Part shown: piece by piece, positions 3,043 to 36,620 of the stretch
How positions within the stretch are numbered: position 1 is the first letter of the stretch
Layout: each line of letters opens with the position of its first letter
Origin: a virus
Direction: 5' to 3' (one strand)
IMG/VR virus record: IMGVR_UViG_3300042934_000260
Span: 1 to 44,106 of that record
Length of the DNA stretch: 44,106 nt
Notes under the pieces: model-generated
The model's input: only the letters and a program-made list of their open reading frames with translations
Databases searched by the model: none
What the model was told of the DNA's origin: nothing
Made by a program: the position numbers and the translations under genes

Positions 3043-4023
3043 ATGACTGATCACAACGAAGAAGTCGGCTCCCAGACCGACATTGAAACGCCAGACGTCG
3101 ACTCCCATATCGACGCATCGCAAGACGGCACGGCAGCAGCTGACCTTTCGTCCGTTCGCGAAATGTTTGGGTTGCCGGCAGTCGAGACAGCAGAAGAGCC
3201 GGATGACCAGCCTGCAGATGATGCGGGTTTGGATGATGAAGCCGCTCCTGAAGACGAGGAGATCGAAGAGGCGCCGCGAGATAAGAATGGGCGCTATGTG
3301 AAATTCAATAAAGAAGACACGTTCGTTCCGGAAGAGGAGTACGACCCGCTTCTTCGCAAAGGCCTGAACTACGACAAGGTTGAAGGCCGGGCTAAAACGT
3401 ACGAGTCAGCACTGGAACGTGTGGCAAAGCTCAGCGGCTACAAAGATCACGCGGACATGCTGGCTAACCTGGACCAGATCGAGCAGCAGCGTACACAGCA
3501 AGAGATCGACGGCTTCGAGACGGTAAAGAATCAGCTTCGCGAACAAGCGAATGACGGGTATCTGGACGCAGATTCCGTTGAGCAGTTTATCAAGCGGACC
3601 GAGGAAGCCATCCAGTACAAAGAGTCGGAACGGCAGCGGAAAGAACAGGAGACACGGGCGCAGCAGGAAACAGAAGGCTGGAACAAGCTTTTCGCCAAAT
3701 ACCCTGATCTTGCATCTCAAGTGCAGGATGAAGGAGACGGGAACATTAAGGCCGACTTCCTCAACCCCGACATGGTTGCACGCATTAGCCGCGGCTACGA
3801 CCCAATCGATGCGTACGAACTGGTCCATCGCGACAATCTTGCGACCGAAGCCAAGAAGAAGACCGAACAGCAGATCCTCAAACAGCAGCGACTCAACAAA
3901 CGTGCCGCGGTCGAAACGACCAACAGCGCACCAAGAGAACCGGAAGTCCCAGCGCAACTCGCAGGGGCTTTTTCTATGTTCGGACTCGATCCGAATGCAG
4001 CTAAAAAATACGTGAAAAAGTGA
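3043..4023 (+). CDS. Scaffolding protein (acidic N-terminus, coiled-coil middle)
   Basis: 326 aa. D/E-rich N-terminal third and helical charged repeats. Sits between the portal and capsid genes. Confidence 0.6.
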   Translation: MTDHNEEVGSQTDIETPDVDSHIDASQDGTAAADLSSVREMFGLPAVETAEEPDDQPADDAGLDDEAAPEDEEIEEAPRDKNGRYVKFNKEDTFVPEEEYDPLLRKGLNYDKVEGRAKTYESALERVAKLSGYKDHADMLANLDQIEQQRTQQEIDGFETVKNQLREQANDGYLDADSVEQFIKRTEEAIQYKESERQRKEQETRAQQETEGWNKLFAKYPDLASQVQDEGDGNIKADFLNPDMVARISRGYDPIDAYELVHRDNLATEAKKKTEQQILKQQRLNKRAAVETTNSAPREPEVPAQLAGAFSMFGLDPNAAKKYVKK

Positions 4024-22861: not shown

Positions 22862-24076
22862 TCACGAATCCTGCAAAATGGGCTCTTCAAAAGGCTTTTC
22901 CAGGATGTCTTTAAACGCCACGCGGATCTTCTCGTCGGCGTTTTTTTGCATGATTTTGGTCACGTGAGTATAGACCCGCAGAGTGGTTTTAGAATCCTCG
23001 TGTCCGATACGTTGCATGATCGTTTGCAGATCAACGCCCGCTTCGGCCAGCATGCTGACGTAGGTGTGTCGGAAGATGTACGGAGTGAATGTTTTAGTGA
23101 TCGCGGTATACTTCATTAGGCGCTGGAAGCGGCTCCTTAAATGATAGCTGTTATAAGGCCATCCGCTTTTACGCCTAAAGATGAATTGTGCTTCGTGCTC
23201 CGGTCGATGGGCTTTGTCGATCGCCTTCCATTTCTTAATGTAGGCATCGAGCATTTGCACGACAATTTCGTCGATGGTGAAAGACCGTATGCCTGCAGGT
23301 GTTTTGGGAGGGGTGAGCTCATATCGAAACATATTGAGTTTTTCGTGATAAATCGTTTTGGTGATTGATATTCTGTTTTCCTCCACAATGAGATCCTGGT
23401 ATTTAAGGGCGAACATTTCACCAGGACGCATACCGCTGAACATTTCAAGGAAGATCATTTCGAAGTCGCCTTCCAGCCCGTGATTCTTCGCAGCATCAAT
23501 GATCTGGTGCAGCTCATCCCGATTCAGGTATTCATCCTCAACGCTCGAGTTTTCAATGTCTTCGACCGTTACCGTACGCTTAGGCATCATGCTGCCCAAT
23601 GCAGGGTTGTCCAACAGGACCTTGTTTCGAATGCCGTATTTGAAAACCATGTTAGCCGTGGCATGGGTCTGCTCGATCGTGCTGCGTGAGTATCCTTCAT
23701 CATCCATCTTGTTCAATGCCTTCTGGTGCACGTTGTGTGTAATGCGCGATATAGGCATCTTGCCGTAGTAGTTATTGAGGAATCTCAAGAAATGCCGCCG
23801 CAGCCGCAAGGTGTTCCGCTTGACTCCGCTTTTCGAATAGGTCTCGTACCATTCCCATCCCACTTCTTCGAACGTGATCCGATCGGCCTGCTTTTCGTGG
23901 ATGCCCTTACTAAGCAGCGCAATGGCCGTATCTACATTAGCCTCGGCTTCCCGCTTCGTATCTGCGCGCCGGCGCACTTGCTTACGTTTGCCGGTTGCCG
24001 AATCAAGCGGTCCGTCCTTCACACACTCCCACTTATAACCCTGCTTGTTCTTGGCAGCGACCTTCTTGAACGCCAT
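22862..24076 (-). CDS. int: Tyrosine integrase (site-specific recombinase, phage integrase family)
   Basis: C-terminal catalytic signature FRHTYVSMLAEAG...IGHEDSKTTLRVYTHV and an upstream GMRPGE Arg. The probable start is ATG 24076 (MAFKKV...) with RBS gggaga. Confidence 0.9.
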   Translation of the reverse strand: MAFKKVAAKNKQGYKWECVKDGPLDSATGKRKQVRRRADTKREAEANVDTAIALLSKGIHEKQADRITFEEVGWEWYETYSKSGVKRNTLRLRRHFLRFLNNYYGKMPISRITHNVHQKALNKMDDEGYSRSTIEQTHATANMVFKYGIRNKVLLDNPALGSMMPKRTVTVEDIENSSVEDEYLNRDELHQIIDAAKNHGLEGDFEMIFLEMFSGMRPGEMFALKYQDLIVEENRISITKTIYHEKLNMFRYELTPPKTPAGIRSFTIDEIVVQMLDAYIKKWKAIDKAHRPEHEAQFIFRRKSGWPYNSYHLRSRFQRLMKYTAITKTFTPYIFRHTYVSMLAEAGVDLQTIMQRIGHEDSKTTLRVYTHVTKIMQKNADEKIRVAFKDILEKPFEEPILQDS

Positions 24077-24551
24077 TTCCCATTCTCCCTTCATATAAAT
24101 GTCCACGCGCTTGAATCATTTCGACCCTTCGTGCAGCAACGTCGATCGGTAGCGCAAAAGTTTCCGCCAACAACCATGTGTATTCCATCCACGTCCTCTG
24201 TGGAGCCGGCAGGAGCGCGTAGGGCATCGCTGCGACAAGCTGGAAGCGTCTGGCCTGCCACTCTTGGTATTGCACCATAAGCGGGTGTAAGCCACGCTGT
24301 CGGCCGTCATGCAAGGCGATGTGTCCAAGCTCGTGATAAAAGTCTGCACGCTGCTGCTCCGGGCTAGTCCTGTTGTCCAGCGAAACAATTCGAAAACCTG
24401 CAGCCCAATAAGAGAATGCTGGAAGCGCGTTGTAAATGACCTGAATGCCCCAAATCGCCGCAATCAAGTGAAAATCAAGGTAGAATCCGTGTTCGGCGTA
24501 TACGTCGCAGATCCAAACATCCGCGACCGTCGGCTGGTAACCTTGCAGCAT
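24033..24551 (-). CDS. immA: ImmA/IrrE-family zinc metallopeptidase (anti-repressor protease)
   Basis: HEXXH motif in FYHELGHIALHD. About 170 aa, directly downstream of the XRE repressor, as in ImmR/ImmA modules. Confidence 0.8.
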   Translation of the reverse strand: MLQGYQPTVADVWICDVYAEHGFYLDFHLIAAIWGIQVIYNALPAFSYWAAGFRIVSLDNRTSPEQQRADFYHELGHIALHDGRQRGLHPLMVQYQEWQARRFQLVAAMPYALLPAPQRTWMEYTWLLAETFALPIDVAARRVEMIQARGHLYEGRMGNGVQEGRCQEQAGL

Positions 24552-27431: not shown

Positions 27432-27707
27432 ATGTACGCAAACGAGAGACTGCAAGAAGAACGGGAGCAGAAGCAGGAAGTACAGTTTCAACTTGAGGAC
27501 GTGAAGCTTGATCTGACCATCCTCAAGGATCGGTTGGAAGACGTATCGGACGAAGTGAGAGTCACGTTGGAAATCCTTCAAAAACTGCAGTGGGACACGA
27601 AGAATGTCAGCCCACAAGGGGTTCTGACGGTGCTGGCGGACTTTTTCCAGAATGATCTGAGCGTTTGTATCGCAAACCTTGAGCAAGCCCAACAGGAGGT
27701 ACATTGA
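27432..27707 (+). CDS. Coiled-coil hypothetical protein
   Basis: RBS ggaaggag. Heptad-rich 91-aa ORF directly upstream of erf. Confidence 0.5.
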   Translation: MYANERLQEEREQKQEVQFQLEDVKLDLTILKDRLEDVSDEVRVTLEILQKLQWDTKNVSPQGVLTVLADFFQNDLSVCIANLEQAQQEVH

Positions 27708-27708
27708 C

Positions 27709-28341
27709 ATGACCGAAACGACCGAAGCTCCGAAGCTCAACCTTTACCAGAAGATCAGCGCCGTTATGCAGGACGTAGAATACCTGTCCAAAGACGATGC
27801 AATCGAGTTCAAGTCCACCAAGTACAAAGCGATTTCGGAAGAGAAAGTCACTTCCGCTGTACGCGCAGCATTGATCCGGCATGGGTTGGTCATCCTTCCC
27901 GTTGAACAGGCTCATAGACGCGCTGACACGCTGACCACAGTGGACGTGAAGTACAAGATCGTGGACATCGAAACCGGAGAACATGAGATCTTGGCAAGCT
28001 CCGGCACTGGAGCAGATACGCAGGATAAGGGCGTAGGCAAGGCCATGACATACAGCTACAAGTACCTGCTGCTTCGCACCTTCGCGATTCCAACCGGCGA
28101 AGATCCAGACAAGGTAAGCAGCGCGGAGCTGGACGAGAAACAGCGTGCAGCGCGTGAGAAGCAGGAAGCCGAAGACCAGAAGACGCTCCGCAGCATCGAA
28201 CAGAAGTGGCAAGTACTGGCCGGTAACACGGACGGCCTTGAAAAGTGGATCGATGACATGACGAAAAAAGGCGTCAAGCTTCAAACCATGCACGAGACGC
28301 TGGCGAAGCGATTGGTCGACAAGGCGAAGGAGGAGAAATAA
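27709..28341 (+). CDS. erf: ERF-family single-strand annealing recombinase
   Basis: LNLYQKISAVMQDVEYLSKDD...FKSTKYKAISEEKV and GKAMTYSYKYLL match the ERF signature. RBS aggaggt lies 8 nt before ATG 27709. Confidence 0.8.
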   Translation: MTETTEAPKLNLYQKISAVMQDVEYLSKDDAIEFKSTKYKAISEEKVTSAVRAALIRHGLVILPVEQAHRRADTLTTVDVKYKIVDIETGEHEILASSGTGADTQDKGVGKAMTYSYKYLLLRTFAIPTGEDPDKVSSAELDEKQRAAREKQEAEDQKTLRSIEQKWQVLAGNTDGLEKWIDDMTKKGVKLQTMHETLAKRLVDKAKEEK

Positions 28342-28749
28342 ATGCTGAACCGTGTAATCCTGATCGGCCGACTTACCAAGGATCCTGAGCTCCGGTACAC
28401 GCCTGCGGGCGTGGCCGTCACTCAGTTCACACTCGCTACGGATCGACCTTTCACCACGAAGGGCGGGGAGAAGGAAACAGACTTCATCCCAATCGTGACT
28501 TGGAAGCAGACAGCCGAAGCGTGCGCGAACTACCTGCGGAAAGGCCGCATGGCTGCTGTAGAAGGCCGGATGCAGACTCGTAACTATGAGAACAGCGAAG
28601 GCAAGAAAGTCTACGTGACCGAAGTCATCGCGGACAACGTTCGATTCCTGGAACCGCCGAATCGGGAAGAGAAGAAAAATGAGTCTCAGCCATCGTTTGT
28701 TGATGACGGAAAGCCAATCGACGTTTCTGACGACGACCTGCCGTTCTGA
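28342..28749 (+). CDS. ssb: Single-stranded DNA-binding protein
   Basis: OB-fold N-terminus [21 protein letters not shown] and an acidic tail ending DDDLPF. Confidence 0.95.
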
Positions 28750-33068: not shown

Positions 33069-33393
33069 GTTGACGAAGGCGCAGGCGGAGTTGTTAGAAA
33101 AATTCAAAAAGGAATACGTTACAGAAGAAGAGATTTTGGAAAACAAATTTCAGAATTTCGTCCATGACCGTGATGACCACGCATTGAAACATATTCCAGT
33201 TAGAACATTGGCCATCGCCCTCTACGTCGGCTACGAAATCATCGAAGAGGATCAGGTGGTTACGGTGACGGAGAATATGCGGGACGCCATCAGGAAAGCG
33301 AGGAACGAATCGGGTTACAGTTCGGAACAGGTTCTCGAAACATGGCTTGAAGGGTTCGACACAGCGTTGGAAGCACTCGGCATCAAACTCTAA
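33055..33393 (+). CDS. Hypothetical protein (112 aa)
   Basis: ORF in the operon, overlapping the upstream gene by 14 nt. Confidence 0.45.
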   Translation: MEKAKLTKAQAELLEKFKKEYVTEEEILENKFQNFVHDRDDHALKHIPVRTLAIALYVGYEIIEEDQVVTVTENMRDAIRKARNESGYSSEQVLETWLEGFDTALEALGIKL

Positions 33394-33405
33394 GGAGGAA
33401 CGCAG

Positions 33406-33561
33406 ATGAAAAACGGAAAGAAGCCCACGAGAGCACAAAAAGCAGCGCTGACGACCAACAACCTCAACGCCGAAAACTGGCTCATCGAGCGCGTAGGTGA
33501 CGGGTACATCATGGTGCAGCATCGCTTGACGGGCACGCTGCGGAAGGTCGCGACGAAATGA
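33406..33561 (+). CDS. DUF6906-like small protein (51 aa; not in the ORF track)
   Basis: RBS taaggagga lies 6 nt before the ATG. The sequence MKNGKKPTRAQKAALTTNNLNAENWLIER resembles the MKNGK..T..QK...NLN.ENWL family (recollection only). Confidence 0.5.
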   Translation: MKNGKKPTRAQKAALTTNNLNAENWLIERVGDGYIMVQHRLTGTLRKVATK

Positions 33562-33713
33562 GCTGCTGGATCGTGTTCGAGGTAGCCAAGCGCATGTACA
33601 TGGCAACGGGGCATGTTCCGACGCTGGAGCAGCTGCAGGCGGAGTTTGAGGATCTGCCGGCCAGTAAGGTCGAGGAAGGGATGCGGATTTTTAACGAGAC
33701 GATTGGAGGGTGA
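33558..33713 (+). CDS. Hypothetical 51-aa protein (not in the ORF track)
   Basis: ATGA overlap with the previous ORF: MSCWIVFEVAKRMYMATGHVPTLEQLQAEF... Confidence 0.4.
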   Translation: MSCWIVFEVAKRMYMATGHVPTLEQLQAEFEDLPASKVEEGMRIFNETIGG

Positions 33714-33717
33714 GCGT

Positions 33718-34095
33718 ATGGACAGACTGATCTTGCCGGGCGTGTTTCCGAGTGTGAACCACATGTATCGCAACGTGACAATCAAAGGTCGGCGCATTCG
33801 AGTGAAGACAAAGAAGGCTGAGCAGGTTTACAACGACATTATTATCCTGGCTCGATACTGGATGCGTTGCAACGGATGGAAGACAACGACGAGCAAAGTC
33901 ATCGTACGTCTGTGGTTCTTCTTTCCGGATGCCAAGCGGCGCGACTCGCACAACCAGATCAAGCTGATCGCCGACGCATTGGAAGAAGCAGGGATATACG
34001 CAGACGATAAGACCGCGCTCCCGAGAGTGATGGACGTTGATATTGACCGGAAGAACCCGCGGATTGAGATCGAATTTGAGCTGATGCTGCCATGA
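33718..34095 (+). CDS. rusA: RusA-family Holliday junction resolvase
   Basis: PSVNHMYRN, a KRRDSHNQIKLIADAL segment and a following YADDK match the RusA signature. The start is ATG 33718, in the frame of track ORF 33613..34095. Confidence 0.8.
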   Translation: MDRLILPGVFPSVNHMYRNVTIKGRRIRVKTKKAEQVYNDIIILARYWMRCNGWKTTTSKVIVRLWFFFPDAKRRDSHNQIKLIADALEEAGIYADDKTALPRVMDVDIDRKNPRIEIEFELMLP

Positions 34096-34178
34096 CCGGA
34101 TGCCCCGACTGCGGACAACCGATGGAGCAGACCGAAAACCGCTACTTTTGCCCAGGGTGCGGGCATAAGGGGGAGTAG
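34092..34178 (+). CDS. 28-aa zinc-ribbon mini-protein
   Basis: ATGA overlap with the rusA stop. MTGCPDCGQPMEQTENRYFCPGCGHKGE carries two CxxC pairs. Confidence 0.4.
   Translation: MTGCPDCGQPMEQTENRYFCPGCGHKGE
34149..34175 (+). repeat. 27-bp direct repeat, left copy
   Basis: TGCCCAGGGTGCGGGCATAAGGGGGAG is identical to 34821-34847. Confidence 0.95.
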
Positions 34179-34209
34179 GTCGAATTGGAACTTGAACAGG
34201 AGGCAGAAC

Positions 34210-34791
34210 ATGAACGTAGCAGTGATTTGCGAATATTCAGCGACGGTGAGGGACGCTTTTGTAAAGCGTGGGCATACAGCAATCTCTTTTGACCTACTCC
34301 CTTCGGAGAAGCCAGGCGGACACATCCAGTATGACGTATTGAAAATGCCGCGGGACTTCTGGGAACAGTTCGACTTGGCGATTTGCCACCCGCCCTGCAC
34401 GCACCTGGCCGTATCCGGGGCGCGTTGGTTCAAGGATAAGCAGCAAGAACAGGTGGAGGCGCTGGAATTCGTGCGTTTCCTGATGGATCTCCCAATCGAG
34501 CGAATCGCAATCGAAAACCCGGTTTCTATCATCAGCAGTCGGATCAGGAAGCCGGACCAGATTATCCAGCCTTGGCAGTATGGGCATGGCGAAACGAAGG
34601 CGACCTGCCTCTGGCTCAAAAACCTTCCGCTGCTGGAGGCCACGAATATCGTGGAAGGCCGCGAAGCAAGGGTCCATATGATGCCGCCTGGTCCAGATCG
34701 TTGGAAGGAGCGCAGCCGTACATTCGAGGGGATCGCAGAGGCGATGGCTGACCAATGGCAGCGCGCAGGTGAAGTGGCTTGGATCGTATGA
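34210..34791 (+). CDS. Minimal Dcm-like (cytosine-5 methyltransferase-like) protein, 193 aa
   Basis: CEYSATVRDAFVKRGHTAISFDL, AICHPPCTHLAVSG (PC motif) and IAIENPV (ENV motif) are present. No obvious target-recognition domain. RBS caggagg lies 6 nt before ATG 34210. Confidence 0.55.
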   Translation: MNVAVICEYSATVRDAFVKRGHTAISFDLLPSEKPGGHIQYDVLKMPRDFWEQFDLAICHPPCTHLAVSGARWFKDKQQEQVEALEFVRFLMDLPIERIAIENPVSIISSRIRKPDQIIQPWQYGHGETKATCLWLKNLPLLEATNIVEGREARVHMMPPGPDRWKERSRTFEGIAEAMADQWQRAGEVAWIV

Positions 34792-34820
34792 CTGCCTGGA
34801 TCACCACCCACACCGGATCC

Positions 34821-34847
34821 TGCCCAGGGTGCGGGCATAAGGGGGAG
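34821..34847 (+). repeat. 27-bp direct repeat, right copy
   Basis: Identical to 34149-34175. Lies within a truncated second copy of the zinc-ribbon reading frame. Confidence 0.95.
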
Positions 34848-34863
34848 CAGGGAGGAGAAGAAA

Positions 34864-36054
34864 ATGGACTATAAACTGAAACGCACGACGGCGATCGCTA
34901 CGACATTGAGCGCCTACGCAGACGATGGTAAGCCGGGACCGTGGACAGTCGCATACAGCGGAGGCAAAGACTCGACGGTCACGCTGGATATTGTGATCCG
35001 GTCGCTGATGCAACTCGCCAAGTACAACCGGGACGCGCTCAAACGCAAAGTGTACATCACGACGGCAGATACAAAGCTCGATTTCGTCACCGACCCACTC
35101 AAACATCGCGAATTGCAGAAAATCCAACGAGTAATCGAAGAAAACAAGCTCCCGGTCGAAATCGTCGAAGTCAGCGCTCCAGACGATCAAAGCTTTATGT
35201 ACTACGTAATTGGGCGAGGATACCCCTTGCCGAAAAGCAGAGTGAATCGTTGGTGCACGGATCGCATGAAAATCAGACCACAACAAAAAGCAATGAAGGA
35301 AATTCAGCCAGTTTACAGCACGATGGGCGTTAGGCTAAGCGAAACAACCGAACGGCGTAGAAGCATCGAAGGTCGCCGAGAATCAGAATATTTCAGCGAA
35401 GACGCCTTCTACCCGATCGTGAACTTTACTCTGGATGACATTTGGGCCTACCTGGTCCATGAAGGCATGGCGTGGGGCGACGCGGAGGAATTGGGCCAGC
35501 TCTACAAGGACGCCACCGGCGAATGCGGGCTGCGGCAGCGCAAGGCTGGTGCGGACGAAAAGAACGACGACCCTTGCGGCGCACGAACCGGCTGCATCAT
35601 CTGCCCGGTCGTCACGATCGACAAAAGCTCGCAGGAGTTCGCCAAGACCCACCCGTGGCTGCAACCTTACGTCAATCTGCGCAACCTGATGATCGACATG
35701 TACAAGCAGCCGCTCAATAAGGCGGGCAGAATGCGGGACGGACGGGTCTTGGAGTATGGAAAGGGCACATTCACCGTCAAAGCCCGGATGAAGCTGTACG
35801 AGGCCGTCAAGCAGGCAGAGCAGGAAAATGCAGAACTATGCGCCATGTACGGAGCCGAGCCGCAAAAGCTCATCTACTCCGAAGAGCTGGACAAGCTTAT
35901 TCGGGATCAATGGGCTGAGGACTTGGTGCAGTGCCCGTGGGTCGAGGATGCCGCGGAGGTAGGGCGGTTCTGCGAATCGAAGATCCGCGGTCTGACGGAC
36001 GGGTATCAGCTCGTTTGGAACACGGACTTCGACACACCGGAATTGCTGACATAA
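34864..36054 (+). CDS. PAPS-reductase-family PP-loop protein (DndC/IbrA-like)
   Basis: PP-loop YSGGKDST, RWCTDRMKIRP and a C-terminal Cys cluster DPCGARTGCIICP. RBS gggaggag. Confidence 0.75.
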   Translation: MDYKLKRTTAIATTLSAYADDGKPGPWTVAYSGGKDSTVTLDIVIRSLMQLAKYNRDALKRKVYITTADTKLDFVTDPLKHRELQKIQRVIEENKLPVEIVEVSAPDDQSFMYYVIGRGYPLPKSRVNRWCTDRMKIRPQQKAMKEIQPVYSTMGVRLSETTERRRSIEGRRESEYFSEDAFYPIVNFTLDDIWAYLVHEGMAWGDAEELGQLYKDATGECGLRQRKAGADEKNDDPCGARTGCIICPVVTIDKSSQEFAKTHPWLQPYVNLRNLMIDMYKQPLNKAGRMRDGRVLEYGKGTFTVKARMKLYEAVKQAEQENAELCAMYGAEPQKLIYSEELDKLIRDQWAEDLVQCPWVEDAAEVGRFCESKIRGLTDGYQLVWNTDFDTPELLT

Positions 36055-36119
36055 CTCGGATCGAGGAAGCTCCGGCGGAACCGGGGCAGATGACACTATT
36101 TTAAGAGGAGCGGATAAAC

Positions 36120-36620
36120 ATGCCAAACTGGGCAGAAGGAACATTGAAAATCAGAGGTACCCGTGAAAACATTCGTAATTTTGTTTTGAACGGGCTCAAA
36201 CCACTGGCAACTGTGGCGCAGGTTTTCGCGAGCGTAAAAGGTGAACCAATCCCCGAAACCAAAGGGTTTGAAGTCAAATCGGACGACGAGGACAATCTTT
36301 GGATTGAAAGCGAAGATGGATTCGGCATCGAAGGCGCCACAAGAAATTTCATCGATTCGAACTATATCGACATCTACTGGAACAGCGGCGATGAAGATAT
36401 AGTCACGTTTGATTACAAGGCTGCATGGGGACCGGATACTGAAGCGCTTTTGAAATTGGCGAAAAAGTACGAGATTGACATTCGGATTTATGTTTTTGAA
36501 AACGGAATGGAATACAACGCCGAATTTGAAGTCAGCCGCACCGGAGATGTTATTTTGAATCGGGAAATCAAGTTCGATGATTACAAGTGGCAATGTCCCA
36601 TGCCAAACATGGGCGGGTAA
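36120..36620 (+). CDS. Hypothetical protein, possibly DUF1281/Api92-like ferredoxin-like domain
   Basis: The N-terminus MPNWAEGTLKIRG resembles the MPNWC...G start of that family (recollection only). AT-rich gene. Confidence 0.35.
   Translation: MPNWAEGTLKIRGTRENIRNFVLNGLKPLATVAQVFASVKGEPIPETKGFEVKSDDEDNLWIESEDGFGIEGATRNFIDSNYIDIYWNSGDEDIVTFDYKAAWGPDTEALLKLAKKYEIDIRIYVFENGMEYNAEFEVSRTGDVILNREIKFDDYKWQCPMPNMGG

What the first reader, a model, noticed from the sequence alone, without database searches (positions are those of the whole stretch)
34149..34847. 27-bp perfect direct repeats bracket the Dcm-like gene: an insertion or pop-out cassette
TGCCCAGGGTGCGGGCATAAGGGGGAG occurs at 34149-34175 and again at 34821-34847, exactly 672 bp apart. 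The left copy is the 3' end of a complete zinc-ribbon mini-ORF (MTGCPDCGQ...YFCPGCGHKGE*). The right copy sits in a truncated second version that has only the second CxxC (MTAWITTHTGSCPGCGHKGEQGGEENGL*) and runs into the RBS and start of the PAPS-reductase gene. The intervening DNA is the Dcm-like gene with its own RBS. The simplest reading is that the methyltransferase-like gene was inserted into, or unequally recombined at, an ancestral mini-ORF, duplicating the target. Recombination between the repeats would excise it precisely and regenerate a single ORF. That would make the modification gene a gain/loss cassette.
Basis: seen in the sequence. Interest (0 to 1): 0.65.

Follow-up and report, generated by a model that had tools for sequence, protein, structure and literature searches.

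The report
Methylase cassette flanked by duplicated mini-gene piece
A small DNA-methylase-like gene in a temperate Paenibacillus-type phage sits between two identical 27-base pieces of a tiny zinc-ribbon gene; this looks like the scar of its insertion, a scar that also flanks the same very widespread gene in about one in twelve of the other phage genomes sampled.

Summary
TGCCCAGGGTGCGGGCATAAGGGGGAG occurs only at 34149-34175 and 34821-34847, 672 bp apart and in the same reading frame; no shuffle reproduced it.

The left copy lies in the native rusA-linked zinc-ribbon mini-gene, which is collinear with relatives L180, L182 and L255. The right copy is a partial second copy of that mini-gene. 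It forms the ribosome-binding site and coupling leader of the DndC-like PAPS-reductase gene.

Between the copies lies a 549-bp cassette (34210-34758). It encodes a C5-methyltransferase-like protein that has the catalytic fold but no target-recognition domain.

Relatives carry rusA, a zinc-ribbon ORF and PAPS reductase without the cassette (L181, L002). One relative has the cassette at a shifted position (L001). No relative has both copies.

The same cassette occurs in phages of most prokaryotic phyla. It is flanked by target-derived direct repeats of at least 13 nt in 13 of 157 loci, against 12 of 1081 control ORFs. One case (L027) is backed by 66 relatives that lack the cassette.

The best reading is insertion by one short-homology crossover and one illegitimate crossover, which duplicated the gene junction. 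This is a phage example of the "insertion with long, variable target duplication" known for restriction-modification genes. Precise pop-out is plausible because the phage encodes Erf and SSB, but it is untested. The main rival is that two older paralogous copies were brought together.

The parts
33718..34095 (+). RusA-family Holliday-junction resolvase gene. Its stop overlaps the start of the left zinc-ribbon ORF (ATGA).
   Evidence: Pfam PF05866, E = 9.8e-12. 94% aa identity to the RusA of L180 and L181.
34092..34178 (+). Left zinc-ribbon mini-ORF (type B, 28 aa). This is the native copy, shortened by a TAG at 34176 where relatives have CAG.
   Evidence: Window 33379-34192 is collinear with L180 at 81%. 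Aligns with the 44-47 aa ORFs of L180, L182 and L255.
34149..34175 (+). Left copy of the 27-bp direct repeat. It encodes CPGCGHKGE, the second Cys knuckle.
34176..34209 (+). Remnant of the zinc-ribbon ORF tail, reused as the methyltransferase leader. The ribosome-binding site AGGAGG lies at 34198-34203.
   Evidence: In alignment A4 this stretch aligns with the L180 and L182 ORF tails, with the 9-mer ATTGGAACT shared with L180. BLAST homology to L180 and L182 ends at 34192.
34210..34758 (+). Conserved core of the mini C5-methyltransferase-like cassette, running from the ATG to the Trp codon of the family's conserved Q-W motif (QWG in most members, QWQ in the window). The full ORF runs to 34791.
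   Evidence: Nucleotide homology to L001 and L185 spans 34210-34758; homology to L186 starts at 34359 and ends at the same base, 34758. PHROG 757. Fold match to M.HaeIII, M.HhaI and DNMT1.
34759..34818 (+). 60-nt trailer of unknown origin. It holds the lineage-specific methyltransferase tail (QRAGEVAWIV*) and the ATGA-coupled start of the right mini-ORF. It ends with ACCGGAT (34812-34818), which matches codons 2-3 and the first base of codon 4 of the zinc-ribbon ORF.
   Evidence: No homolog in any fetched locus. The ACCGGAT match was seen in the sequence and in alignment A4.
34788..34874 (+). Right mini-ORF (28 aa) with a single Cys knuckle. It bridges the methyltransferase stop (ATGA overlap) and the PAPS-reductase start (ATGGACTATAA).
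   Evidence: Modest homology to the single-knuckle leader ORF in front of PAPS reductase in L002 (p about 0.005).
34821..34847 (+). Right copy of the 27-bp repeat. Homology to the zinc-ribbon mini-gene extends over 34819-34862.
34864..36054 (+). DndC-like PAPS-reductase-family gene (396 aa). Its ribosome-binding site GGGAGGAG lies inside the right partial copy.
   Evidence: Pfam PF01507. Matches TIGR03183 (DndC) and NF005316 below their cut-offs. 72-87% identical homologs in Paenibacillus prophages.
27679..28749 (+). Erf-family single-strand annealing protein (27679-28341) and SSB (28342-28749). This is recombination machinery that could act on short repeats.
   Evidence: Pfam PF04404, E = 2.8e-18, and PF00436, E = 4.3e-36.

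Best explanation
The 27-bp repeat is most likely a recombination scar left when a mobile mini-methyltransferase gene was placed between rusA plus a zinc-ribbon mini-gene on one side and the DndC-like PAPS-reductase gene on the other.

Inferred ancestral layout: rusA, then (ATGA overlap) a zinc-ribbon mini-ORF, whose end overlaps the PAPS-reductase start. The purine-rich end of the mini-ORF serves as the PAPS-reductase ribosome-binding site.

Inferred event: a related phage carried the cassette just behind its own copy of the mini-gene. It recombined with this genome twice.
- One crossover fell inside the conserved core of the mini-gene (short homology).
- One illegitimate join fell 27 bp further upstream in the recipient's copy.

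Because the second join lies upstream of the first, the stretch between them is present twice. This accounts for a perfect, sharply bounded repeat. It also accounts for a left tail that comes from a different allele of the mini-gene, and for a PAPS-reductase gene that keeps its original leader, ribosome-binding site and translational coupling.

Only insertions that duplicate the junction, rather than delete part of it, leave both neighbouring genes working. That would explain why such duplications flank this cassette in many phages.

Shown: the repeat, the cassette borders, the native context of each copy, cassette-free relatives, and the recurrence of target duplications elsewhere.

Inferred: the order of events, the donor, and that the phage's Erf and SSB can delete the 672 bp between the repeats to give a 36-aa ORF coupled to PAPS reductase.
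For: 1. The repeat is unique, perfect and in frame. The predicted deletion product is MTGCPDCGQPMEQTENRYFCPGCGHKGEQGGEENGL*, which overlaps the PAPS-reductase ATG.

2. The left copy is in its native context. The window is collinear with L180 from 33379 to 34192. It also aligns with the type-B zinc-ribbon ORFs of L182 and L255.

3. The right copy is a fragment of the same mini-gene: 33 of 34 positions match L180 and 88% of 42 nt match L182. It is joined to the PAPS-reductase start.

4. In the 9 nt that vary among alleles, the two window copies are identical:
- Window left and right: TGCCCAGGG
- L180: TGCCCAAGG
- L182: TGCCGGGGG
- L255: TGTACAGCC
Outside the 27-31 bp block, the flanks of the two copies are not significantly similar.

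5. The cassette borders are sharp. Homology to other copies of the gene ends at 34758 in L001, L185 and L186, and begins at the ATG (34210) in L001 and L185.

6. Relatives lack the cassette:
- L181: rusA (94% aa), a zinc-ribbon ORF, then PAPS reductase
- L002: a single-knuckle mini-ORF, then PAPS reductase
- L180: rusA, the zinc-ribbon ORF, then other genes
In other Paenibacillus phages the cassette sits at different sites (L185, L186).

7. Flanking repeats recur around this gene.
- 13 of 157 cassette loci have boundary-abutting direct repeats of at least 13 nt.
- Only 12 of 1081 other ORFs in the same loci do (Fisher p = 1.8e-6).
- The repeat sequences differ from locus to locus. They are the 3' end of the upstream gene, with or without the start region of the downstream gene.

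8. L027 gives the clearest case.
- The methyltransferase ends in a 32-nt copy of the neighbouring DNA polymerase's native C-terminal codons.
- 66 related polymerase loci lack the cassette.
- L242 has the polymerase directly followed by the downstream gene.

9. The phage encodes Erf and SSB. Phage annealing proteins are known to recombine short or diverged homologies (PMC2327257).
Against: - No relative with an exact empty site containing this 27-mer was found. The 27-mer search of viral contigs found nothing. The 20-mer core found only L182.
- L001 is the closest relative for both the methyltransferase (90% aa) and PAPS reductase (87% aa), at about 80% nucleotide identity. It has the cassette next to PAPS reductase without a right copy. 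If the insertion predates that split, a perfect 27-bp repeat would need later conversion or selection.
- The core TGCGGGCATAAGGGGGAG is identical in all five mini-gene copies examined, even where RusA is only 70% identical. Part of the identity may therefore be conservation rather than recent duplication.
- ACCGGAT just upstream of the right copy suggests a whole second mini-gene copy with a 45-nt in-frame deletion. That would fit an older duplication or a paralog.
- Excision has not been observed.
Confidence: 0.6

Rival explanations
1. Two older copies of the zinc-ribbon mini-gene were simply brought together. Either they were tandem paralogs, or one belonged to the rusA module and the other to the PAPS-reductase module. 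The cassette was then inserted, or recombined in, between them without creating any duplication. On this view the 27-bp identity reflects strong nucleotide-level conservation of the mini-gene core, or gene conversion between the two copies.
For: - Tandem zinc-ribbon ORFs exist behind rusA in relatives (type A followed by type B in L182 and L255).
- L002 has a single-knuckle mini-ORF as the PAPS-reductase leader with no methyltransferase nearby.
- The right copy is closer to L180 (33 of 34) than the left copy is (29 of 34).
- The tails of the two copies match different alleles.
- ACCGGAT at 34812-34818 fits a whole copy with an in-frame 45-nt deletion.
- The core is identical in five alleles.
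- The methyltransferase and PAPS reductase are already adjacent in L001, at about 80% nucleotide identity.
Against: - The two window copies share the allele-specific variable bases TGCCCAGGG, which L180, L182 and L255 lack.
- Identity stops abruptly on both sides.
- No relative has two type-B copies.
- The same cassette demonstrably creates target duplications elsewhere.
Confidence: 0.28
2. The repeat is a functional nucleic-acid element present twice on purpose. It could be a protein-binding site, an RNA hairpin or a translational control element placed in front of the two DNA-modification genes.
For: - The core is conserved at synonymous sites across alleles.
- It is purine-rich and resembles a Shine-Dalgarno sequence.
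- In different genomes it lies upstream of three different genes: the mini-ORF's own tail, PAPS reductase (window right copy) and the methyltransferase (L001).
Against: - Predicted RNA folding is no better than for shuffled sequences (z = 0.26, 0.84 and 0.38).
- The left copy lies 34 nt from the methyltransferase ATG, which has its own AGGAGG.
- There are no promoter-like or terminator-like sites on the + strand in 33300-36300.
- The motif occurs only twice in the window.
Confidence: 0.06
3. The cassette is a transposon-like or site-specific mobile element, and the 27 bp is its target-site duplication or attachment core.
For: Direct repeats flank the gene here and in other genomes.
Against: - There is no transposase or integrase gene in or next to the 672-bp unit. 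The phage integrase lies about 10 kb away at 22862-24106.
- There are no terminal inverted repeats at the cassette ends.
- Repeat length varies from 13 to 32 nt between loci.
- The 3' cassette border varies by 0-30 nt after the conserved QWG motif.
- Microhomologies are seen at the joints, for example GTGGGG in L027. This is typical of illegitimate recombination, not of an enzyme with a fixed cut.
Confidence: 0.04

Closest known systems
[quoted passage not shown] 2010, PMC2853133, citing earlier H. pylori work)
   Same: A DNA-methyltransferase gene with no mobility gene of its own lies between direct repeats that are copies of the target. Repeat length varies from case to case. The repeats often overlap the 3' end of a neighbouring gene. 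Fusion of the inserted gene with duplicated target sequence occurs in both settings (here).
   Different: The cases here are in phage genomes, not bacterial chromosomes. The inserted gene is an orphan 184-193 aa mini-methyltransferase, not a restriction-modification pair. The repeats are shorter (13-32 nt, against the >30 bp criterion used in that study). In the window, the flanks of the two copies come from different alleles, which implies a homologous crossover as well as an illegitimate one.
Phage genome mosaicism by illegitimate or relaxed homologous recombination at gene boundaries (for example Martinsohn et al. 2008, PMC2327257)
   Same: A module junction lies at a gene boundary. Short or diverged homology (the conserved mini-gene core and ribosome-binding-site-like tract) is the likely crossover site. 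The phage encodes an annealing protein (Erf).
   Different: Classical mosaic joints exchange alleles without leaving a duplication. Here a piece of the junction is present twice and flanks a single added gene.
Morons (extra phage genes with their own promoter and terminator)
   Same: A single accessory gene is present in some relatives and absent in others, and is inserted between conserved genes.
   Different: There are no promoter-like or terminator-like signals. The gene is embedded in a translationally coupled operon and uses a leader made from the disrupted mini-ORF.
C5 cytosine DNA methyltransferases (Dcm, M.HhaI, M.HaeIII; Pfam PF00145)
   Same: The predicted fold matches the catalytic domain of M.HaeIII, M.HhaI and DNMT1. 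A Pro-Cys motif (HPPCTH) and an ENP/ENV-like motif are invariant in the family.
   Different: The protein is only about 184-193 aa and has no target-recognition domain. It has no Pfam, NCBIfam or PDB sequence match. Activity and substrate are unknown.

Membership tests
Insertion with long/variable target duplication (as defined for restriction-modification genes, PMC2853133) | The inserted methyltransferase gene is flanked by direct repeats that are copies of local (target) sequence. | tested here: met
   The 27-31 bp repeat is a piece of the resident zinc-ribbon mini-gene. Analogous repeats of 13-32 nt occur in 13 of 157 loci carrying the same gene.
Insertion with long/variable target duplication (as defined for restriction-modification genes, PMC2853133) | A related genome without the insert carries the repeated sequence once (an empty site). 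| tested here: inconclusive
   For the window, L181 and L002 have the cassette-free gene order but a different mini-ORF allele without the 27-mer. L180, L182 and L255 carry the sequence once but have other genes downstream. For locus L027 the feature is met at gene-order level (66 relatives).
Insertion with long/variable target duplication (as defined for restriction-modification genes, PMC2853133) | There is no transposase, integrase or other mobility gene inside the inserted unit. | tested here: met
   The 672-bp unit holds only the methyltransferase-like ORF and short leader and trailer sequences.
Insertion with long/variable target duplication (as defined for restriction-modification genes, PMC2853133) | The duplication is longer than 30 bp (the operational threshold of that study). 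| tested here: inconclusive
   The perfect repeat is 27 bp, or 31 bp with one mismatch. Homology of the right copy to the mini-gene spans about 42 bp.
IS/transposon insertion | Terminal inverted repeats, a transposase gene and a short target duplication of fixed length. | tested here: not met
   No inverted repeats at the cassette ends. No transposase. Repeat length varies from 13 to 32 nt among loci.
Moron | The gene has its own promoter and terminator flanking it. | tested here: not met
   No + strand promoter-like or terminator-like sites in 33300-36300.
C5 cytosine DNA methyltransferase (PF00145, Dcm-like) | Sequence match to the family profile. | tested here: not met
   No Pfam or NCBIfam family at E <= 0.1 and 0.01 respectively. 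No relevant PDB sequence match. The only hit is PHROG 757, "DNA methyltransferase".
C5 cytosine DNA methyltransferase (PF00145, Dcm-like) | Catalytic-domain fold with a Pro-Cys nucleophile motif and an ENV motif. | tested here: met
   The AlphaFold2 model (pLDDT 76) best matches M.HaeIII, M.HhaI and DNMT1 (probability about 1, query-normalised TM-score 0.4-0.53). C59-H60-P61-P62-C63-T64 and E102-N103-P104 are invariant in 33 homologs.
C5 cytosine DNA methyltransferase (PF00145, Dcm-like) | A target-recognition (small) domain between motifs VIII and IX. | tested here: not met
   The protein is 193 aa, against 324-328 aa for M.HaeIII and M.HhaI. Target-normalised TM-score is only about 0.27-0.34.
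C5 cytosine DNA methyltransferase (PF00145, Dcm-like) | Methyl-transfer activity on DNA cytosine. | not testable with these tools
   Needs methylome sequencing or an enzyme assay.

The most novel reading that the evidence does not exclude
The roughly 184-aa methyltransferase-like gene, which lacks a target-recognition domain, may be a self-promoting, hypermobile phage gene. It is found at 55-90% amino-acid identity in viruses and prophages of Bacillota, Proteobacteria, Bacteroidota, candidate-phyla-radiation (CPR) bacteria, methanogens and Thaumarchaeota. It may spread by a dedicated or self-stimulated mechanism, for example DNA lesions or covalent enzyme-DNA complexes that trigger template switching. 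That mechanism would leave variable-length duplications of gene junctions. The window's 27-bp repeat would then be one fresh, still reversible insertion of this element, with the conserved zinc-ribbon core acting as a preferred landing and recombination site.
Probability: 0.12. Interest if true: 0.8.

Novelty: new member of a known kind. Interest (0 to 1): 0.5.

Why it matters
The locus shows at base-pair resolution how a phage can add an accessory DNA-modification gene inside a tightly coupled operon without breaking its neighbours. The gene junction is duplicated, so both the incoming gene and the downstream gene keep a ribosome-binding site.

The same signature around the same gene in about 8% of the unrelated loci sampled suggests ongoing gain, and possibly loss, of one of the most widely shared phage genes. 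It extends the "insertion with target duplication" phenomenon from bacterial restriction-modification genes to phage orphan methyltransferases.

If the repeats do mediate precise loss, phage populations would carry methylase-plus and methylase-minus variants. That would matter for evading restriction and other defences.

Tried and rejected
- Near-identical phage genomes: megablast of 33600-36100 against 50,697 phage records found nothing. Exact 27-mer search of viral contigs found nothing.
- Protein-pattern scans with PAPS reductase in viral and genome contigs found no confirmed relative.
- RNA structure in or around the repeat: folding no better than shuffles. Rejected.
- Own promoter or terminator (moron model): none found. 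Rejected.
- Compositional anomaly of the cassette: GC 0.557 against 0.52-0.55 for neighbours, GC3 0.667 against 0.68-0.69. Not informative.
- Trailer origin: the 60-nt trailer has no homolog in any locus. The 19-mer hits in viral contigs (L183, L184) are unrelated high-GC sequences and were judged chance.
- General linkage of the cassette to zinc-ribbon ORFs: 7 of 296 flanks against 16 of 978 control windows, so no enrichment.
- General linkage of the cassette to PAPS reductase: seen only in the window and L001 among 162 loci.
- Extended similarity of the flanks of the two copies: not significant (p = 0.55 upstream, 0.125 downstream).
- A target duplication in L001: none convincing on reading the sequence.
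- Literature searches found no paper on the mobility of this mini-methyltransferase family.
Full report
**1. The observation**

The 27-mer TGCCCAGGGTGCGGGCATAAGGGGGAG occurs exactly twice in the window, at 34149-34175 and 34821-34847. Both copies are on the + strand. None of 100 shuffles gave a match, even with three mismatches allowed. The repeat finder extends the pair to 31 nt with one mismatch, T against C at 34176/34848, at a spacing of 672 nt. That spacing is 224 codons, so the copies are in the same frame.

| Coordinates | Gene | Evidence |
|---|---|---|
| 33718-34095 | rusA | Pfam PF05866 |
| 34092-34178 | 28-aa zinc-ribbon ORF, start overlapping the rusA stop (ATGA) | |
| 34210-34791 | 193-aa methyltransferase-like gene behind AGGAGG | |
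| 34788-34874 | second 28-aa ORF; start overlaps the methyltransferase stop (ATGA), stop overlaps the next gene's ATG | |
| 34864-36054 | DndC-like PAPS-reductase gene | PF01507; sub-threshold TIGR03183 |

The window is a temperate phage. It has an integrase at 22862-24106, Erf at 27679-28341, SSB at 28342-28749 and a DnaB helicase. Its relatives are Paenibacillus prophages.

**2. What each copy is**

Close relatives were found through RusA homologs.

- L180 (RusA 94% identical) is collinear with the window from 33379 to 34192 at 81% nucleotide identity.
- Behind rusA, L180 has a 44-aa zinc-ribbon ORF, MTGCPECGADMQQDGDCYACPRCGHKGEQGALELPEAAEQLTLF.
- L182 and L255 have 47-aa versions of this ORF.

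The left copy therefore lies in the native mini-gene, called type B here. The window's version is shortened by TAG where all relatives have CAG. Its tail remnant still aligns with the relatives almost up to the methyltransferase ATG (alignment A4).

The right copy is also a piece of this mini-gene.

- Window 34819-34852 matches L180 at 33 of 34 positions.
- Window 34821-34862 matches L182 at 88%.
- Downstream it runs directly into the PAPS-reductase start.
- Upstream, the 60-nt trailer (34759-34818) has no homolog anywhere.
- The exception is its last 7 nt, ACCGGAT, which equal codons 2-3 and the first base of codon 4 of the mini-gene. This could mean the right copy is a whole second copy with an in-frame 45-nt deletion. 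The post hoc chance estimate is about 0.003, which is my own calculation.

Outside the 27-31 bp block, the flanks of the two copies are not significantly similar to each other (p = 0.55 upstream, p = 0.125 downstream).

**3. The cassette**

Nucleotide homology to the same gene in L001 and L185 spans 34210-34758, from the ATG to the Trp codon of the conserved Q-W motif (QWG in most members, QWQ in the window). Homology to L186 starts at 34359 and ends at the same base, 34758.

The protein has no Pfam, NCBIfam or PDB sequence match. It does match PHROG 757, "DNA methyltransferase". An AlphaFold2 model (pLDDT 76) is most similar to the catalytic domains of M.HaeIII, M.HhaI and DNMT1. CHPPCT and ENP are invariant in the family. 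At 193 aa it has no room for a target-recognition domain. "Dcm-like" is therefore right for the fold and unproven for the activity.

**4. Relatives with and without the cassette**

| Locus | Layout around the site |
|---|---|
| L181 (RusA 94%) | rusA, an 85-aa type-A zinc-ribbon ORF, PAPS reductase; no methyltransferase |
| L002 (C-terminal PAPS-reductase fragment 93% identical) | a single-knuckle mini-ORF (MITECPDCGRDGKERENGL...) running into PAPS reductase; no methyltransferase |
| L180 | rusA, type-B ORF, other genes |
| L001 (methyltransferase 90%, PAPS reductase 87%) | mini-gene remnant plus ribosome-binding site, methyltransferase, PAPS reductase; no right copy |
| Nine further PAPS-reductase loci with the 5' end present | unrelated genes upstream |
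| L185, L186 (Paenibacillus phages) | cassette at other sites: after erf plus a 128-aa gene, and after a dUTPase gene |

In L001, the remnant and ribosome-binding site have the same 8-nt spacing to the ATG as the window's right leader.

No relative carries both copies. The cassette is plainly a variable, inserted gene.

**5. A general pattern**

The cassette is extremely widespread.

- More than 8000 homologs have 75-90% identity.
- Homologs at 47-79% identity occur in prophages and contigs of Enterococcus, Paenibacillus and Proteobacteria.
- The same search found them in Bacteroidota, Planctomycetota, candidate-phyla-radiation (CPR) bacteria, Methanobacteriaceae and Thaumarchaeota.
- It shares about 70% nucleotide identity with Burkholderia phage Bcep1 gp12 and with Methanosarcina, Prochlorococcus and Pf-like phages.

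Flanking repeats are enriched around this gene.

- In 144 such loci, the longest exact word shared by the 300 nt upstream and downstream was at least 14 nt in 8 loci. It was that long in only 3 of 2000 mismatched locus pairs.
- With windows restricted to the gene borders, 13 of 157 loci have repeats of at least 13 nt. Only 12 of 1081 other ORFs of the same loci do (p = 1.8e-6).
- The control ORF set is crude, so the roughly 7-fold enrichment is approximate.

The repeats differ in sequence between loci. They are the last codons and stop of the upstream gene, often with the overlapping start of the downstream gene. The methyltransferase's own variable C-terminal tail is frequently encoded by the duplicated copy. 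Examples are L027 WGALKELHD*, L131 PLQETTP*, L132 QPSGAG* and L121 EVGQ*.

L027 supplies the clearest test.

- The tail ...SWGxLKE...* is native to 66 related DNA polymerases.
- None of those polymerases is followed by the cassette.
- In L242 the polymerase is directly followed by the homolog of L027's downstream gene.
- The joint in L027 lies in a 6-nt microhomology (GTGGGG).

This is the signature of microhomology-mediated illegitimate recombination, with survival only of events that keep both neighbouring genes intact.

**6. Best model for the window**

Within the 27-bp block, the two window copies share the bases that vary among alleles. Both have TGCCCAGGG, against TGCCCAAGG, TGCCGGGGG and TGTACAGCC in L180, L182 and L255. 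So they are sisters there. Beyond the block, the left tail resembles L180, while the right tail resembles L182 and then becomes the PAPS-reductase leader.

The simplest account is one crossover inside the conserved mini-gene core, between a cassette-bearing donor and a recipient with rusA, mini-ORF and PAPS reductase. A second, illegitimate join then fell 27 bp further upstream in the recipient copy. This gives a perfect, sharply bounded repeat, keeps the ribosome-binding site and coupling ORF of PAPS reductase, and uses the disrupted mini-ORF tail as the methyltransferase leader.

The deletion product of repeat recombination is a 36-aa ORF that overlaps the PAPS-reductase ATG. Erf and SSB are present. 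Phage annealing proteins recombine short or diverged homology (PMC2327257). Excision itself is inference. I put about 0.6 on this model.

**7. Rivals**

- **Pre-existing paralogous copies brought together, with conservation or gene conversion (about 0.28).**
  - For: tandem zinc-ribbon ORFs in relatives, and the L002-type leader.
  - For: the ACCGGAT match and the closer similarity of the right copy to L180.
  - For: the 18-25 nt core TGCGGGCATAAGGGGGAG(CAGGGAG) is identical in five copies, even where RusA is only 70% identical.
  - For: adjacency of the methyltransferase and PAPS reductase in L001 at about 80% nucleotide identity.
  - Against: the shared variable bases and the abrupt borders of identity.
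- **Functional repeated element (about 0.06).** No RNA structure and no promoter or terminator.
- **Transposon or site-specific element (about 0.04).** No transposase, no terminal inverted repeats, and variable repeat lengths and cassette borders.
- **Chance.** Excluded.

**8. Comparison with what is known, and novelty**

[quoted passage not shown] Its mechanism is also unknown. That study reports gene fusions with the duplicated target, as seen here. The present case differs in several ways:

- It lies in a phage.
- It concerns an orphan mini-methyltransferase.
- The repeats are shorter.
- It combines a homologous with an illegitimate crossover.

It also fits the general picture of phage mosaicism at gene boundaries. 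I found no paper on the mobility of this gene family, but the library searched is incomplete.

Verdict: a new member of a known kind. The window's repeat is a well-preserved example. The recurrence across about 8% of the sampled loci is the more interesting by-product. Interest 0.5.

Noticed in passing
window 34210-34791; loci L007-L166: The mini methyltransferase-like gene is hyper-conserved and occurs across domains. More than 8000 homologs have 75-90% aa identity. Homologs at 47-79% occur in bacterial and archaeal (Methanobacteriaceae, Thaumarchaeota) and CPR contigs. It shares about 70% nucleotide identity with genes of Burkholderia, Methanosarcina, Prochlorococcus and Pf-like phages. It has no Pfam or NCBIfam model.
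   Followed up: partly
L027 2955-2986 / 3540-3571; L131 2980 / 3579; L132 2963 / 3551; L061 2773 / 3560; L153 2964 / 3582; L121 2990 / 3553; L016 2975 / 3658: The same cassette is flanked by target-derived direct repeats of 14-32 nt in unrelated genomes. The duplicated 3' end of the upstream gene often encodes the methyltransferase's C-terminal tail. Joints lie in microhomologies ((A/G)TGAG at the 5' end, TGGGG at the 3' end).
   Followed up: partly
window 34158-34175 and 34830-34854; L180 6441-6463; L182 2003-2027; L255 1203-1227: A core of 18-25 nt, TGCGGGCATAAGGGGGAG(CAGGGAG), of the type-B zinc-ribbon mini-gene is identical at synonymous sites in five copies. This holds even where the adjacent RusA is only 70% identical. 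In different genomes three different downstream sequences follow it: the ORF's own tail, PAPS reductase, or the methyltransferase. It may be a recombination hot spot or a functional element.
   Followed up: partly
window 34176-34178: An in-frame TAG ends the left zinc-ribbon ORF where L180, L182, L255 and the window's right copy all have CAG. Without it the ORF would read on across the methyltransferase start to 34292.
   Followed up: no
window 34864-36054: The DndC-like PAPS-reductase gene stands alone, with no dndA, dndB, dndD or dndE nearby. It is conserved at 65-87% identity in many Paenibacillus prophages. It matches the DndC model TIGR03183 and NF005316 well below their cut-offs, and its role in the phage is unknown.
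   Followed up: no
L002 5552-6744: The PAPS-reductase gene of the nearest cassette-free relative is split by a frameshift into 134-aa and 247-aa parts. This is either a pseudogene or an assembly error.
   Followed up: no
P0173 / L087 (Heyndrickxia prophage): Here the mini-methyltransferase is fused at its C-terminus to a zinc ribbon (…QWGGVKCVSCG…YCPNC…). However, zinc-ribbon ORFs are not generally enriched next to the cassette.
   Followed up: partly
L176 2218-2877; L005 2368-3017; L254 3545-4849: Other DNA-methyltransferase genes sit beside the PAPS-reductase or rusA genes in relatives: a canonical C5 type, a Dam-like MethyltransfD12, and a PF00145 type. This part of the early operon appears to be a general slot for DNA-modification genes.
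   Followed up: no
L182 1222-2071; L255 876-1272: Two different zinc-ribbon ORFs lie in tandem: type A (about 85 aa) and type B (47 aa). In L255 they follow rusA directly; L182 was not scanned for rusA.
   Followed up: no
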